Positions 18,781-42,798 are shown, numbered from the stretch's first letter. The stretch is DNA of 64,000 bases from an uncultured Actinomycetota bacterium (GCA_963834185.1 CAWIAR010000005.1:315863-379862), one strand, 5' to 3'. Notes: generated by a model from the letters alone, not told the origin. Numbers and translations are program-made.

Positions 18781-19737
18781 TCAGCGCAGATCCACCGCAA
18801 CCATGCGCGCAACAATCTCCTCGAATGCGACCGTTGGACGCCAGTTGAGGCGCTCGCGGGCCCTCGTCGGGTCGCCGACCAGCGCGACGCCCTCGACCGG
18901 CCGGAAGAACTGTGGGTCGGACCGGACGAATCGTTCCCAGTCCCGCAGGCCGGCGGCGGCGAAGGCCGCCGCCACGAAGTCCCGCACAGTGTGGCCCTCT
19001 CCCGTCGCGATCACATAGTCGGACGGTTCGGACGCCTCGGCGGCCAACGCCATCGCGGCCATGTAGTCCGGTGCCCAACCCCAGTCGCGGACCGCGTCGA
19101 GGTTCCCGAGGACGAGTTCGTCGGCCTCACCCCTGGCGATCCGCGCCGCGCCGGCGGTGATCTTGCGGGTGACGAAGGTCTCCGGCCGTCGGGGTGACTC
19201 ATGGTTGAACAGGATCACCGACGAAGCATGCAGGCCGCGGCCGCGGTACACCGACACCAGATGGTGGGCATAGGCCTTGGCCGCGCCGTACGGGCTCACC
19301 GGGGCAATCGCCGTCGTCTCGTTCTGCGGGCTGGTCGCCGGCGCGCCGAAGATCTCAGCGCTGGATGCCTGGACGAACCGAATGGGCCGGCCGGTGTCCT
19401 GGGTGACCTGCCAGACCGTCTGAATCAGCCCCGCTACCGCCAGTCCGTTCACTGCCCCGTTCACGACCGGCGCCGCCCACGACTGCGCCACCGACGAGAT
19501 TCCGGCCAAGTTGTAGACCTGGTCGGGTGCGACGTCCGCGATCAAGCCGGCGAGCGTGTCGGCATCGGTCAGATCTGCACGGTGCACGGTCAGCCCGGGC
19601 GCATCCTGATCGACACCGCCGACCTGGCCATCCTCTTCGCGCGCAAGCCCATGCACCGTGACCCCTCGGGACAGCAGGTGCTCGGCGAGATAGCCGCCGT
19701 CCTGACCGCTGATCCCCGTGATCAGGGCGCAGGGCAT
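18781..19737 (-). CDS. gmd: GDP-mannose 4,6-dehydratase family protein (divergent paralogue)
   Basis: [62 protein letters not shown] upstream. Confidence 0.85.
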   Translation of the reverse strand: MPCALITGISGQDGGYLAEHLLSRGVTVHGLAREEDGQVGGVDQDAPGLTVHRADLTDADTLAGLIADVAPDQVYNLAGISSVAQSWAAPVVNGAVNGLAVAGLIQTVWQVTQDTGRPIRFVQASSAEIFGAPATSPQNETTAIAPVSPYGAAKAYAHHLVSVYRGRGLHASSVILFNHESPRRPETFVTRKITAGAARIARGEADELVLGNLDAVRDWGWAPDYMAAMALAAEASEPSDYVIATGEGHTVRDFVAAAFAAAGLRDWERFVRSDPQFFRPVEGVALVGDPTRARERLNWRPTVAFEEIVARMVAVDLR

Positions 19738-19877
19738 AGGACTCCTCGATGGACTTGGCACTGGAAGGTCAGGCGAATCCTATCGGGGACCGAGTTACGG
19801 ACCGATGCCGAATTCACCTTCTCGAGCTGTTGACGGGCCGGACGTCGCTGCCGACGGTCACCGCTACCCTCGGTCAG

Positions 19878-20996
19878 GTGAGCCTCCAGCCCTTTGTCTC
19901 TTTCGCACAGAACCGTGAGGACGTCGTCCTGTACCGCGCGCTGGGTCACATCGCGAATGGCCGATATCTCGACGTCGGTGCCAACGATCCGTCGGCCGAC
20001 TCGGTGACCCGGGCGTTCTACGACCGGGGCTGGCGCGGAATGTCGATCGATCCGGTTCACACCTACGCCCAAGCGCATCGTGACCAGCGCCCCGGTGATG
20101 TGGTGTTCGAAGTTGCGGTCACCGATGTGAACGGCACCGTGACCCTGTACGAGGTACCGGACACAGGCTTGTCCAGCCTGCACGAGGACGTCACGACGGT
20201 GCAGCTGTCCCGTGGCCGTGAGGTGCAGCCGGTACAGGTTCCGGCTCATCGGCTCGGTGATCTGTTGGCCGAGGCGGGCTGGCAGGGACTCGACATCCAC
20301 TTCATGAGCCTGGATGTGGAGGGGGCGGAAGCGGAGGTGTTGTCCGGGGCCGACCTGAGCATCTGGCGGCCATGGGTGATCGTGATCGAGTCGCTGGAGC
20401 CGGACACCGCTCTGCCGTCCCATGAGCGGTGGCAACCCGAGCTCGAGGCCGCAGGATATCGTTTCGTGCTCTTCGATGGCCTGAACCGTTTCTTCGTCGC
20501 GGAAGAGCATTGGGACGAGCTGCACGACAAGCTCAGCGCGCCGGCGAATGTCCTGGACAACTACGAACCGGCGCGCTCGGCCGAACTCAGGCACGAAGTC
20601 GAAAGGCTGAGCGCGGAGCTTTCCGAATGCCGGGACGAGCTGGACGGGCTACGAACCCATCATCTCGGGATGGTCGACGACCGCGAAGCCCTGGTGGCCG
20701 ACCGCGGCCGGATCTACCGGAGGGCTGAGGAACTGACCCACGAGATCGAGGCGATTCGTGATCGGGAACGCGCCGCGCTGGCTTCGGCTGTCGCCTGGCG
20801 CACCAAGGCCACGGCAGCGTGGACGGTGAACGCAGCCGCGAACGAAATAACCACCAATGCGGAAGTCGACCGGCTGCGCGCAGCAGCCGCCGGGCTGACA
20901 CACGAGCTGGCCGCGACCCGAGCGACTCTTTCCTGGCGAATCACCCGACCGTTGCGCGCCGTTCGCCGTCGGACCCAGGCTTCCGGCCATAGATGA
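19878..20996 (+). CDS. FkbM-family methyltransferase with C-terminal coiled coil
   Basis: SFAQNREDVVL, YLDVGANDP..DSVT, SLDVEGAE, WRPWVIVIE, FDGLNRF; heptad-rich tail ending LSWRITRPLR. Confidence 0.9.
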   Translation: MSLQPFVSFAQNREDVVLYRALGHIANGRYLDVGANDPSADSVTRAFYDRGWRGMSIDPVHTYAQAHRDQRPGDVVFEVAVTDVNGTVTLYEVPDTGLSSLHEDVTTVQLSRGREVQPVQVPAHRLGDLLAEAGWQGLDIHFMSLDVEGAEAEVLSGADLSIWRPWVIVIESLEPDTALPSHERWQPELEAAGYRFVLFDGLNRFFVAEEHWDELHDKLSAPANVLDNYEPARSAELRHEVERLSAELSECRDELDGLRTHHLGMVDDREALVADRGRIYRRAEELTHEIEAIRDRERAALASAVAWRTKATAAWTVNAAANEITTNAEVDRLRAAAAGLTHELAATRATLSWRITRPLRAVRRRTQASGHR

Positions 20997-40129: not shown

Positions 40130-41701
40130 GTCGGTGCCTCCAGATCGACGTCGCCGCCGGTCAACTCGATCAACTCGGGCGCAACCAGGAACTCCCACAA
40201 CGCCCGCGCGTAGTCGGCCCATGTCGTCTCGGTGCGGCCGGCGATCTCGCGCCCGCAGCCTCGCCAGCTTCGGCCGGACCGGTCAGCAACGGTACGCATC
40301 GCATCGGTGAGTTCTCGATCGTTCCGTGGGTCGACGAGCAATGCGCCGCCACCGGCGCGCGATCTCCGCGGTCGAGCCGAAGTTCGAGGTGATCACCGGG
40401 AGTACCGTGCGCCAGCGATTCGGCCACCGGAAGCCCGTACCCCTCGTGCACCGACGGGAAGACGGTGAACGACGCCTCGGCGTAGGCCCGGTCGAGGTCC
40501 GCGTCGGACACGCCCTTGCGCACCTCGATCGCCCGGCCTGCTGCGGCCAGCGCGGCAGCGCGCCTCGGGAACTCCTCACCCCAGCCACTGCCGCCGATGA
40601 ACTCGAGGTGAACATCGAGACCCTCGCGCCACAGGATCTCCGCAGCGTGCAGGACGGCGAGGTGGTTCTTCCGCGGTTCGTGCGAGCCGACCACCAACAC
40701 CATCGGCGGGCTGCGGCGGATCACCCCGGGCACGCGGTCGGCCGACCGCCGGCGACGGCAAGGACACCTCCCCGACGATCGGGCCGGTCAGGCCCTGGGT
40801 CGGCAGCATCCGGGCGAAGCCGGCGAACTCGGCGGTGGCGGTGACCGAGATGCCGGCGACCCGGTCCGTGGCCGACTTGATCACGGTCAGGTAGCGGGTG
40901 AACTTGGCCGACTCGGCGGGCGGGACCATGTCGGCGGAGACCACCGGGATGGCGTCATAGCCGATCGCCACCACCCGGTTCCCGAGCACATTCCGAGGCC
41001 GGCGACCCGATCGGCGACTCCCACGGCCGGCACTTCCACCAGCACCACGACGCTGCGCCAGGGCACGAGCAAGCCGGACCTGCCCGATCGACCGCCACGT
41101 GTCGCGGCGGCCGCCCGCCGACGTCGGAACCGCGCTGCGACCAGTCGAGGATCCGTCCCGGTCTCGGCGTTCGTCGAGCCGGCGCAGCGCTCCGGCCGAT
41201 CCGTCCAGGCGACCGGGATCGACGTCCGGATGCGCGCCATGCCACTCGGGCAGCAGATTGCGCGCGACCCGCTGGATGCCGGTGTGCAGGTCGTGCTTGG
41301 CGCTGTGATCGACGTCGGCCAGTACCCCGCCGACCACGAATTCCAGCTCGGCCAGCGGTTCCCCGACCATCTGCACCCGCGACAGCGCGGCTGTCCATCA
41401 GGTACAGCGCGGTGTCCAGCGGGTCGTCGAATTCGATCCGACGACGGATGGCTTCGACTTCCCGAGGGAGCGGGTACCCGCCGGCCAGTCGCGGTCATCA
41501 GCAGCCAGACGCGCTCGTCCGGTTGTCCTCGAGACCGCGGCGATCAGCCGCTCGAGCAGTTCGCCGGCGTCGTCTCCGGCAGTCGCGGTTCCGGGAGCGG
41601 CTCGCCCGGGCAGCAGCACGGTCGCCGCGGTCCGCAGCCGAGCAGGCCAGCGCGCGACGGGCGAGCGAGCTCGACGTCACCGGCGTGGCCGGAACGGTCA
41701 C
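40130..41701 (-). CDS. GT4 glycosyltransferase, paralogue of the preceding gene (many apparent frameshifts)
   Basis: DVDHSA..TGIQRVAR, GYDAIP, VGSHEPRKNH, FPSVHEGYGLPVAESL; GTGA overlap with the FkbM stop. Confidence 0.72.
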
Positions 41702-42798
41702 CGGCCCACCACCCGGGTTCCGCGGCGCACGGTGCGCAGCGGCGCGGTCACCCGCCAGGACACCGTTGCGCGCATCGCCGCGAGTTCGCCGTTCACCGCG
41801 TCGACGTGCCGGCGCAGCTGGTCGAGTTCGGCGCCGGCCACCACGTTGCCGTCCGCCGCCCGCGCGGCCCAGGCCGACAGCGCCCGGCTGCGCCAGGCGA
41901 CCGCCGCCTTCCACGCCGCGGCCTGCTGCTCCTGCGCCTCGGCCGAGTCAGCGCGGCAGTCGGCCAGCTCTGCCTCCAAGCGGTCGCGCGCCTGCGCGTG
42001 GGCGTCGCGCTCGGCGGCCACGCCGCCCGATGGCAGCGGCCAGCCGGCTGCGCTCGGCGGACACCACCGACAACTGCCTGGCCAGCTCGTGGGTGCGGTA
42101 CGGAATGAAGTCGTCCAGCGGACTGGCCGGGCGTTCCACGGCGTCGTGCAGGTCGTCCCACTTCTCGTCGGCGACGTAGAACCGGGACAGGCCGTCGAAC
42201 TGGGCGAACCGGTAGCCGCGGTCGGTCAGCAGGTGCTCCCACTCCTCGATGGGTGGGCGTGGCGGAGGTCGGTTCCGTCGCCTCGGCGACGACGATCCAT
42301 GGCCGCCAGCGGCCGAGGTCCAGCGCCGCGGAGCACCGAGCCCTCGGCGCCCTCGACATCGATCACCAGGAAGTGGATGGGCTGGTCCTGCCAGCCCGCC
42401 TCGTCGAGCAGGGAGTCCAACGTTCGGGTCGGCACCGGGAGCTCGGTGGCCTCGCGACCGGCTGCGACGTGCCGATCGGCGAACTCGTCGACCACCGTCG
42501 ACAGGCCGGTGTCCGCGAACTCGTGCAGCACCACCTCGCCGCCGTCGACATCCGTGACCGCGACCTGGAACAGCAGGTCACGAGGCCGCTCCGTGCGCTG
42601 GGCGGCGGCGAAGGCGGGCACCGGCTCGACCGTGATCCCGTGCCATCCTGCGTCGTAGAACGCCCTGGTCACCGAGTCGACCGTCGGGTCGTTGGCCCCG
42701 ACGTCGATGTACCGACCCTCGGAGATGCCGGCCAGCGCGCGGCGCAACACGACGTCCTCGCGGTTCTGGGCGTAGGAGACGAACGGCTCGGTTGTCAC
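41698..42798 (-). CDS. Second FkbM-family methyltransferase with coiled-coil tail (apparent frameshifts)
   Basis: SYAQNREDVVL, YIDVGANDP..DSVT, IDVEGAE, WRPWIVV; tail ..VSWRVTAPLR. Confidence 0.85.

What the first reader, a model, noticed from the sequence alone, without database searches (positions are those of the whole stretch)
18781..42798. Candidate DUF4214-docking glycan system: an O-antigen-like perosamine/D-rhamnose polymer as a protein anchor in a monoderm actinobacterium
Seen: one block encodes two gmd paralogues, Per, a PerB-type acetyltransferase, eight GT4s, Wzm/Wzt with a C-terminal extension and two FkbM+coiled-coil proteins. It also encodes a cytoplasmic DUF4214 protein heading the per operon, and a secreted SpoIID enzyme with about 4 DUF4214-like repeats divergent from wzm. 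WbbL, RmlA, RmlD and an LCP ligase flank the block. Known: Gmd, Per and PerB make GDP-N-acetylperosamine; the Caulobacter S-layer protein RsaA docks on a PerNAc-containing O-antigen through its helical N-terminal domain; DUF4214 is common in surface and S-layer proteins. Inference: this actinobacterium builds an O-antigen-type chain on a Rha-GlcNAc-P linker, ligates it to peptidoglycan via LCP, and uses it as a non-covalent anchor for DUF4214-tailed proteins. That would be an alternative to SLH/pyruvylated-polymer or sortase anchoring. I am not aware of it being described in Actinomycetota.
Basis: partly seen in the sequence, partly recalled or inferred. Interest (0 to 1): 0.8.

Follow-up and report, generated by a model that had tools for sequence, protein, structure and literature searches.

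The report
Caulobacter-type sugar cassette, DUF4214 wall tag
A Nakamurella (actinobacterial) genome carries, inside its sugar-export gene cluster, the same set of perosamine genes that Caulobacter has beside its S-layer gene, plus two DUF4214 proteins: one inside the cell that likely helps cap the sugar chain, and one tail on a secreted wall enzyme that likely holds it on the cell wall, though relatives suggest the tail does not need perosamine.

Summary
Genes confirmed; the frameshifts are probably assembly errors. The organism is a Nakamurella. The block is a Wzm/Wzt-C glycan locus with two layers: a core common in the genus (gmd orthologue in 31 of 77 genomes) and a low-GC perosamine cassette (4 of 77). 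The cassette's perB-per-GT4-GT4 run matches the operon beside Caulobacter rsaA. The cytoplasmic DUF4214 protein belongs to this cassette. In other phyla the same slot holds DUF4214-coiled-coil-FkbM fusions, so it is likely part of the chain terminator, not an anchor. The secreted four-repeat tail occurs in 15 of 77 genomes, mostly on wall enzymes; 7 of 20 tail genes lie within 10 kb of wzt. But 11 of 15 tail genomes lack Per, two near-complete ones lack Gmd, and the RsaA likeness is inconclusive (Z 4.5; HHalign 9.5%). Wall targeting is likely; perosamine-specific docking is unsupported. DUF4214 as a surface or glycan anchor is already proposed in print (SFB; Psh preprint), and this scan noted it before on other DNA. 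New: the cassette in monoderm actinobacteria, including a cultured type strain, and DUF4214-LCP fusions in a distant family.

The parts
18781..19737 (-). gmd1: divergent Gmd-like SDR (second paralogue; reductase role inferred only)
   Evidence: adjacent to gmd2 in 27 of 30 other genomes with a gmd2 orthologue
19749..20996 (+). FkbM1: FkbM methyltransferase + helical/coiled-coil region + C-terminal amphipathic helix (WbdD-like layout); part of the Per cassette
21068..22326 (-). GT4a (frameshifted); cassette gene, not found in the Caulobacter loci examined
22323..23360 (-). GT4b; 43-45% identical to the last GT4 of the Caulobacter operon beside rsaA
23357..24398 (-). GT4c (frameshifted); 41-46% identical to the GT4 after per in Caulobacter
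24389..25520 (-). Per, GDP-perosamine synthase (frameshifted near 24710); 64-65% identical to Caulobacter Per
25517..26263 (-). PerB-type N-acetyltransferase (start uncertain)
26137..27102 (-). Cytoplasmic DUF4214 protein: short N-terminal helix, two DUF4214 repeats, C-terminal ~65-aa helix (coiled coil); no signal peptide seen
27209..29149 (-). Polytopic membrane protein without a Pfam family; cassette member in all four Per genomes
29367..30350 (-). gmd2: canonical GDP-mannose 4,6-dehydratase
30531..31757 (+). GT4d (low GC)
31754..32947 (+). GT4e (low GC)
32944..34230 (+). GT4f (frameshift near 33961; true end earlier than this ORF end)
34112..35398 (-). Wzt with C-terminal Wzt_C carbohydrate-binding module; best PDB hits 8DKU/7K2T
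35404..36306 (-). Wzm
36504..38575 (+). Secreted SpoIID/LytB-type lytic transglycosylase (signal peptide; catalytic Glu position kept, by alignment to 4RWR) with a four-repeat DUF4214 tail at about 37960-38575; frameshifts near 36770 and 38168
38595..39990 (-). GT4g, long GT4 (frameshifted; boundaries approximate); core gene, candidate polymerase (inferred)
40159..41690 (-). GT4h, long GT4 paralogue of GT4g (frameshifted; boundaries approximate)
41700..42798 (-). FkbM2: FkbM + helical region (frameshifted); core terminator candidate
12050..13050 (-). WbbL-like GT2 (frameshifted; name from recalled motif and synteny with rmlA; boundaries approximate)
11114..12010 (-). RmlA (frameshifted; start approximate)
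2940..4088 (-). GT4z, GT4 found in 14 of 15 loci compared; candidate adaptor transferase (inferred)
51671..52534 (-). RmlD
53030..55144 (+). LCP glycopolymer ligase with LytR_C

Best explanation
This Nakamurella locus encodes an ABC-transporter glycan pathway that likely builds a methyl-capped wall polysaccharide, carries an inserted perosamine cassette whose cytoplasmic DUF4214 protein is likely part of the chain-capping machinery, and has a secreted SpoIID whose DUF4214 tail likely holds it on the wall by a feature that is not perosamine-specific. Steps. (1) Shown by homology: Gmd, Per and PerB are the enzymes for GDP-N-acetylperosamine. (2) Inferred: a lipid-linked primer (WbbL-like GT2, GT4z) is extended by the GT4s on the inner face of the membrane. 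The FkbM-coiled-coil proteins act as WbdD-type rulers and cap the chain. Wzt_C reads the cap, Wzm/Wzt exports the chain, and LCP ligates it to peptidoglycan. (3) Shown: the Per cassette has low GC and separates gmd2 from gmd1, which are adjacent in relatives. Inferred: it is a mobile add-on that changes the glycan type. (4) Shown: elsewhere the cassette's DUF4214 is fused to a coiled coil and FkbM. Inferred: here it is the split-off membrane-side or polymerase-side half of that terminator. (5) Shown: the four-repeat tail is a swappable C-terminal module on many wall enzymes. Inferred: it is a non-covalent wall-targeting domain, most likely binding a glycan part shared across glycan types (linker-proximal sugars or backbone).
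For: Cassette membership: the order membrane protein-DUF4214-perB-per-GT4c-GT4b-GT4a-fkbM1 is the same in G811; the same genes are rearranged in G829 and G823. The cytoplasmic profile finds full-length matches in 4 of 77 genomes, the same four that have Per at 73% identity or more (those four built the profile, the other 73 gave none). Among 80 loci found with GT4b, 30 have a DUF4214 hit. Of 29 such ORFs scanned, 17 carry FkbM and one another methyltransferase. Caulobacter loci read rsaA-rsaD-rsaE-gmd-perB-per-GT4-GT4. Cassette GC is 0.654 against a genome value of 0.693; only 6 of 428 genome windows are as low. Tail: confident four-repeat helical model (pLDDT 97.6). Passengers in the genus include SpoIID, CAP, Rpf transglycosylase, YkuD, serine-hydrolase-like and M14 carboxypeptidase. 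Neighbouring CAP and SpoIID genes carry other C-terminal modules or none. 7 of 20 tail genes lie within 10 kb of wzt, against about 0.1 expected, and the linked tails do not group together on a tree (no formal clade test). All 9 sampled genomes of low-GC family f80 have a DUF4214-LCP fusion. Terminator logic from passages of PMC11231755.
Against: No binding, wall chemistry or expression data. The glycan's sugars are unknown: no Rmd was identified, and gmd1 scores 263 bits to Gmd against 103 to Rmd. The tail's nearest solved fold is the phycobilisome linker domain (Z 9.2), which binds proteins (recalled), so glycan binding is not implied by the fold. All 4 Per genomes do have a tail, and 12 of 15 tail genomes have the gmd orthologue against 19 of 62 without (Fisher p 0.0008, kin not independent; p 0.12 among 37 high-quality genomes), so some tie to GDP-6-deoxy-sugar glycans remains possible. 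The tail-wzt linkage could simply follow from SpoIID and CAP genes sitting in this interval anyway. The locus may make more than one polymer (two FkbM genes, one transporter).
Confidence: 0.55

Rival explanations
1. One reading: the tail is an RsaA-like lectin that docks specifically on the PerNAc/D-Rha chain made by this locus, a dedicated anchor system.
For: The perB-per-GT4-GT4 cassette is shared with the Caulobacter operon beside rsaA. RsaA-NTD (7PEO) is among the best non-phycobilisome structural hits and spans the whole model (Z 4.5, rmsd 3.4, 117 residues). The repeat motif aligns in register. All 4 Per genomes have a tail. The only two DUF4214 genes of G000 are in the locus. RsaA-NTD binds a PerNAc O-antigen (passages of PMC6978808).
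Against: 11 of 15 tail genomes lack Per. G012 has the 68%-identical SpoIID-tail orthologue beside wzm with no Per found (84% complete). G806 and G809 (100% and 99% complete) have two tails each and no Gmd-level match. In G811, G823 and G829 the tail gene is unlinked to the locus (inputs). RsaA-NTD is a separate Pfam family (PF19198), and the HHalign score (27.05) is almost reached by a block-shuffled control (26.86).
Confidence: 0.2
2. The tail binds peptidoglycan itself, or a wall protein, and sits beside wzm only because wall-enzyme genes cluster in the lcp-rmlD interval.
For: Most identified passengers act on peptidoglycan. 13 of 20 tail genes are not within 10 kb of wzt. Tail-less SpoIID and CAP genes sit in the same interval. 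No glycan gene family was exclusive to tail-bearing loci among 15 compared. The closest fold is a protein-binding linker domain.
Against: DUF4214 also occurs in cytoplasmic glycan-terminator proteins, where no peptidoglycan is present, and is fused to LCP. The family is large (11,221 clusters at E<=0.001). The Psh preprint reports over 80% of Psh proteins adjacent to O-antigen operons or a T1SS (passages).
Confidence: 0.2
3. The exported chain is not ligated to peptidoglycan but ends on a membrane lipoglycan or on surface proteins (as in S-layer glycosylation, recalled).
For: The region holds several large unassigned membrane proteins, one of them PMT_2-like. Wzm/Wzt-C with methyl caps serves several glycan classes (passages). 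The WbbL name is unverified.
Against: LCP and RmlD flank the locus wherever the fetched stretch reaches that side (12 and 11 of 15 loci), and rmlA with a WbbL-like GT2 lies inside it.
Confidence: 0.15

Closest known systems
Caulobacter S-layer-associated LPS operon and RsaA N-terminal domain (PMC6978808, passages; PDB 3DR7, 4EA7, 7PEO)
   Same: perB-per-GT4-GT4 in the same order; Per 64-65%, GT4s 41-46%, PerB 38-42% identical; PerNAc precursor genes; a helical repeat domain on exported proteins (Caulobacter genomes carry 5-14 RsaA-NTD-like domains each).
   Different: Monoderm host. Wzm/Wzt-C with FkbM-coiled-coil terminators in the same locus. Extra GT4a and DUF4214 protein. No T1SS or S-layer gene in the window. 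The tail is PF13946, not PF19198, and homology between them is unproven.
ABC-transporter glycan assembly with a terminator/ruler (E. coli O9a WbdD/WbdA; Klebsiella O3, O4, O5, O7, O12; PMC11231755, passages)
   Same: Wzt with CBM; methyltransferase + coiled coil + terminal amphipathic helix; separate GT4 polymerase candidates.
   Different: FkbM-family cap enzymes, two of them; a separate DUF4214-coiled-coil subunit; an actinobacterial wall instead of lipid A as the likely acceptor.
Psh (RTX-DUF4214) of Pseudomonas putida KT2440 (bioRxiv 10.64898/2026.09.02.748959, passages)
   Same: DUF4214 on an exported protein beside surface-glycan genes; proposed glycan binding.
   Different: T1SS export, phage shielding, diderm; binding was modelled, not measured; a different glycan.
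DUF4214-tailed surface proteins of segmented filamentous bacteria (PMC3371716 and PMC12780176, passages)
   Same: Four conserved C-terminal regions on secreted proteins in a monoderm lacking SLH domains; proposed surface anchor; phycobilisome-linker-like fold already noted.
   Different: Clostridial host; the passages read give no ligand or glycan locus.
Actinobacterial wall rhamnans and rhamnomannans (Curtobacterium, Rathayibacter; seen only as cited in passages)
   Same: 6-deoxyhexose polymers in actinobacterial walls.
   Different: No perosamine, Wzm/Wzt or DUF4214 link in the passages read.

Membership tests
DUF4214 (PF13946) | HMM score above the gathering cut-off (23.2 bits) | tested here: met
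   51.7 bits (cytoplasmic) and 31.1 bits (SpoIID tail); 47.7 bits for the intact G012 tail
RsaA N-terminal domain (PF19198) | HMM match to PF19198 | tested here: not met
   No PF19198 row for the query tail at E<=0.5, nor among the 25 families listed (of 83) for alignment A1; RsaA NTDs score 96-210 bits
RsaA N-terminal domain (PF19198) | Shared fold or remote homology | tested here: inconclusive
   7PEO Z 4.5, rmsd 3.4, 117 aligned; HHalign 9.5%, E 0.0034, best shuffled control almost equal; tail HMM gives 5-16 bits on 8 of 10 NTDs against 0 or less on reversed sequences
RsaA N-terminal domain (PF19198) | Ca2+-dependent binding to PerNAc O-antigen | not testable with these tools
   Needs a binding assay
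GDP-N-acetylperosamine pathway (Gmd, Per, PerB) | Per and PerB closest to the characterised enzymes; Gmd present | tested here: met
   (gmd2 411 bits, just under the 415 cut-off)
GDP-D-rhamnose pathway (Gmd + Rmd) | An Rmd-type reductase | tested here: inconclusive
   gmd1 is closer to Gmd (263 bits) than to Rmd 2PK3 (103 bits); no other close SDR in the 64%-complete genome
ABC-dependent glycan with terminator/ruler | Wzm + Wzt with C-terminal CBM | tested here: met
ABC-dependent glycan with terminator/ruler | Capping enzyme joined to a coiled coil with a membrane helix | tested here: met
   FkbM + heptad-like region + C-terminal amphipathic 11-mer (moment 0.90); the coiled coil of FkbM1 was judged from sequence, not modelled
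ABC-dependent glycan with terminator/ruler | Cap required for export; chain length set by the coil | not testable with these tools
   Needs mutants
WbbL (Rha-GlcNAc-PP-lipid linker) | Orthology to characterised WbbL | tested here: inconclusive
   GT2 beside rmlA in relatives; no naming match
LCP-ligated wall glycopolymer | LCP above cut-off in the locus | tested here: met
   TIGR00350 104 bits
LCP-ligated wall glycopolymer | This glycan is the LCP substrate | not testable with these tools
   Needs wall chemistry
SLH/pyruvylated polymer-type dedicated anchor pair | Binding domain strictly co-occurs with its ligand pathway | tested here: not met
   Tail without Per in 11 of 15 genomes; without Gmd in 3 of 15; gmd locus without tail in 19 of 62

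The most novel reading that the evidence does not exclude
DUF4214 is one glycan-gripping module used on both sides of the membrane. Inside, it holds the growing chain or the polymerase at the base of the ruler. Outside, it tethers wall hydrolases and even the LCP ligase to ABC-exported wall glycans, with tail variants tuned to the local glycan. It would then be a remote relative of the RsaA anchor, and a non-SLH, non-sortase anchoring route in Actinomycetota whose Caulobacter-type PerNAc chain could be tested in a cultured type strain.
Probability: 0.3. Interest if true: 0.75.

Novelty: new variant of a known kind. Interest (0 to 1): 0.52.

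Why it matters
DUF4214 is a very large family (11,221 clusters at 50% identity hit by one tail), proposed as the surface anchor of SFB and as an O-antigen binder in Pseudomonas. 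The papers found give no measured ligand. Nakamurella offers natural contrasts (tail with or without Per, Gmd or linkage) and a cultured strain, N. lactea DSM 19367, with both the cassette and a tail, so the ligand question becomes directly testable. A Caulobacter-type perosamine cassette in monoderm actinobacteria would extend O-antigen-style chemistry and chain-length control to their walls. The DUF4214-FkbM and DUF4214-LCP fusions give the domain a concrete place in glycan assembly.

Tried and rejected
(1) A first genus count with one tail as query (13 of 77) missed diverged tails and suggested that two Per genomes had none. A family search and a 19-row profile corrected this to 15 of 77 and dropped G019. 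The profile scored at most 40 candidates per genome, so further misses are possible. (2) The class-wide Pfam search (5 of 401) is too insensitive to give a frequency. The phylum search (57 of 401) used a model that included SpoIID columns and scored 3 candidates per genome, so its tally mixes SpoIID-only hits and was used only to find loci. (3) Foldseek gave no PDB match at E<=0.001 for the tail. The fold search of the cytoplasmic model (mean pLDDT 64.7) was filled by generic coiled coils. (4) No glycan gene family exclusive to tail genomes among 15 loci (11 were chosen as tail-bearing before one search showed that two of the four 'negatives' also have tails). (5) The ESM Atlas held neither cytoplasmic sequence. 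(6) Complex prediction of the cytoplasmic DUF4214 region with GT4a and GT4b was not available, so there is no verdict. (7) No RNA holder listed. (8) No tRNA in the window; the repeats are paralogue matches. (9) Paper searches with no hit: perosamine+actinobacteria+cell wall+wzt; Nakamurella+cell wall+rhamnose+glycosyltransferase; Caulobacter+perosamine+S-layer+lpsD/lpsE; WbbL+rhamnosyltransferase+LCP+actinobacteria+linker. 'DUF4214' gave 10 papers, 9 listed, none on actinobacteria by title or abstract start. The library lacks most subscription journals. The Psh preprint's supplementary figures 6-7 (domain partners, binding model) were not seen and may bear on novelty. (10) The identity of family f80 was not established.

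Full report
1. Observation. The window lies on contig C5 of a 4.03-Mb, 64%-complete genome. Its genus includes a genome whose proteins are named Nakamurella lactea, and the window's Per groups with Nakamurella Per proteins. Per's best PDB hits are the perosamine synthetases 3DR7/3BN1/3DR4 at 387 bits, against 227 for the next family. The acetyltransferase's best hit is perosamine N-acetyltransferase 4EA7. Wzt has a Wzt_C domain. There are eight GT4 genes. Many genes are frameshifted. For 33000-42800, contigs of near-identical strains from four soil or root runs show one-base indels at several breaks and a gap across the SpoIID tail break, and relatives have intact orthologues, so I read the breaks as assembly errors. 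WbbL is only a WbbL-like GT2 by recalled motif and position beside rmlA. Three profiles found just two DUF4214 genes in the genome, both in this block.

2. Two layers. All 77 genomes of the genus were searched (two, G818 and G819, are unpublished; counts with and without them are given where they matter). A Wzt match at E<=1e-70 occurs in 56 of 77, a gmd2 orthologue at 70% identity or more in 31 of 77, and Per at 73% or more in 4 of 77 (a fifth hit at 50% lies in another context). A core of gmd2-gmd1, FkbM-coil, two long GT4s, wzm and wzt recurs in 9 of 15 loci compared. The set membrane protein, DUF4214, perB, per, GT4c, GT4b, GT4a, fkbM1 is found together in the four Per genomes. In the window it lies between gmd2 and gmd1, which are adjacent in 27 of the 30 other genomes with gmd2, and its GC is 0.654 against 0.693, with 6 of 428 genome windows as low. 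It is an accessory cassette; mobility is inferred.

3. The cassette is Caulobacter's. A scan with GT4b confirmed 311 relatives and returned the best 80 loci: Nakamurella, Blastococcus, Cellulomonas, Cellulosimicrobium, Acidimicrobiia, Solirubrobacterales, Bryobacterales, Planctomycetota, Bacillaceae, Pseudomonas putida and Caulobacter. 68 Per-like rows were recovered from them. In Caulobacter the order is rsaA, T1SS ATPase, adaptor, gmd, perB, per, GT4, GT4 (RsaA_NTD confirmed), with 64-65% (Per), 38-42% (PerB) and 41-46% (GT4s) identity to the window. The Caulobacter O-antigen contains PerNAc-PerNAc-Man repeats and is bound by RsaA-NTD (passages of PMC6978808). A PerNAc-containing chain in the window's organism is therefore a good inference. 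The direction of transfer was not tested.

4. The cytoplasmic DUF4214 protein is not an anchor. It shows no signal peptide. The model has a short N-terminal helix, two three-helix repeats (pLDDT about 90) and a long C-terminal helix (mean pLDDT 64.7). Full-length matches occur in exactly the four Per genomes. Of the 80 GT4b loci, 30 have a DUF4214 hit. Of 29 such ORFs scanned, 17 carry an FkbM domain (several also match V. cholerae RfbT) behind the DUF4214 region, one carries another methyltransferase, and the rest are DUF4214-only or unassigned. They share a short helix before the repeat. Cytoplasmic DUF4214-methyltransferase fusions also occur in G095, G609, G512 and G810. In known systems the capping enzyme sits at one end of a coiled-coil ruler and the membrane helix and polymerase-recruitment site at the other (passages of PMC11231755). 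I infer that the window splits this unit into DUF4214-coil and FkbM1-coil. An earlier scan note (e1-4183227) reached a similar reading on other DNA; I saw it.

5. The secreted tail. The intact G012 tail folds confidently into four helical repeats (pLDDT 97.6). Its closest solved fold is the phycobilisome linker domain (Z 9.2, rmsd 2.6, 115 residues), as noted before for SFB proteins (passage of PMC3371716). RsaA-NTD appears at Z 4.5, rmsd 3.4, 117 residues. HHalign gives 9.5% probability with the repeat motif in register, but a block-shuffled control nearly ties, and the Pfam families differ: inconclusive. A 19-row profile finds the tail in 15 of 77 genomes (13 of 75 without the unpublished two). 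Passengers include SpoIID, CAP, Rpf, YkuD, serine-hydrolase-like, M14 carboxypeptidase and FG-GAP proteins, and two long ORFs were unassigned. CAP and SpoIID genes in the same interval carry unrelated C-terminal modules or none, including the window's own second SpoIID and its CAP. This is the pattern of a swappable wall-targeting domain.

6. Does it track the glycan? For: 7 of 20 tail genes in 13 published genomes lie within 10 kb of wzt (about 0.1 expected), and the linked tails do not group together on a tree. All 4 Per genomes have a tail. 12 of 15 tail genomes have gmd against 19 of 62 others (p 0.0008; 10 of 13 and p 0.0035 without the unpublished two). Against: among 37 high-quality genomes the split is 7 of 9 against 12 of 28 (p 0.12), kin are not independent, and tail presence needs 8 changes on a 41-genome rpoB tree. 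11 of 15 tail genomes lack Per. G012 has the orthologous SpoIID-tail beside wzm without Per. G806 and G809 have tails and no Gmd. In three of the four Per genomes the tail is unlinked. Linked tails occur beside different transporter and GT types. Outside the genus, four-repeat tails in G045 and G288 have no glycan-gene match nearby. A strict PerNAc/D-Rha ligand pair is therefore not supported; a shared wall feature fits better. One more link to wall glycans: in a distant low-GC family (f80), 29 of 30 sampled genomes matched the profile, all 9 examined have an exported DUF4214-LCP fusion (Pfam-confirmed in 4, BLAST to LCP in 8), and 27 of 41 have Wzt_C.

7. What is known. DUF4214 is named a likely surface anchor in SFB (passage of PMC12780176) and modelled as an O-antigen binder for P. 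putida Psh (passages; supplements not seen). A Halomonas paper cites an S-layer role (passages). Actinobacterial wall rhamnans are known (as cited). Earlier scan notes proposed the same tail-glycan anchor in Lachnospiraceae and another genome; they are unchecked leads, not support. Searches for perosamine or DUF4214 in actinobacteria found nothing, within a library that lacks most subscription journals.

8. Verdict. Real features with a partly right reading: a new variant of the known ABC terminator-type glycan pathway plus a proposed but untested anchor domain. The new points are the Caulobacter-type cassette in monoderm actinobacteria (including the named type strain in L072), the DUF4214 subunit of the terminator, and the DUF4214-LCP fusions. 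Interest 0.52.

Noticed in passing
L014, L015, L020, L032 (family f80; e.g. L014:9852-11138): Exported proteins with two N-terminal DUF4214 repeats fused to an LCP domain in all 9 genomes examined of a low-GC (0.30-0.44), 1.3-2.4 Mb family of Actinomycetota; the same module also heads GDSL and polysaccharide-deacetylase proteins. Family identity not established (Ca. Humimicrobiia is a recalled guess).
   Followed up: partly
G857-G861 (Caulobacteraceae; loci L152-L161): Each genome has 5-14 ORFs with an RsaA-NTD-like domain, suggesting the O-antigen-binding domain is reused as a general tether; one scored 23.0 bits on DUF4214 against a cut-off of 23.2.
   Followed up: partly
window 49375-50739 (-) and 50771-51625 (-): A second SpoIID and a CAP protein without a DUF4214 tail; in relatives the CAP C-terminus is swapped among DUF4214, an unclassified ~60-residue repeat and other beta-rich modules (fold labels by eye), possibly with the glycan type.
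   Followed up: partly
window 5985-10160 (-): GT2 + NAD-dependent epimerase + large membrane protein, conserved in G012 and G004; may resemble three-component extracytoplasmic sugar addition (PMC11127046, search listing only).
   Followed up: no
window 43255-49340 (-): Several tandem, frameshifted paralogous membrane proteins (one PMT_2 hit), candidate GT-C decorating enzymes.
   Followed up: no
window 27209-29149 (-): Cassette membrane protein without a Pfam family; triplicated in G829 and G823 and present beside the cassette in Cellulomonas and Cellulosimicrobium loci.
   Followed up: partly
L008 (G045:C130): Four tandem secreted proteins sharing the four-repeat tail next to 2-oxoacid-dehydrogenase-like genes, with no glycan-gene match on the 10-kb contig.
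   Followed up: no
L029:2355-4160 (-): Ser/Thr kinase with a C-terminal DUF4214 region, a possible wall-glycan sensor.
   Followed up: no
G000:C4:104542-107109: A second aminotransferase/acetyltransferase cluster (40-45% to Per, 34% to PerB).
   Followed up: no
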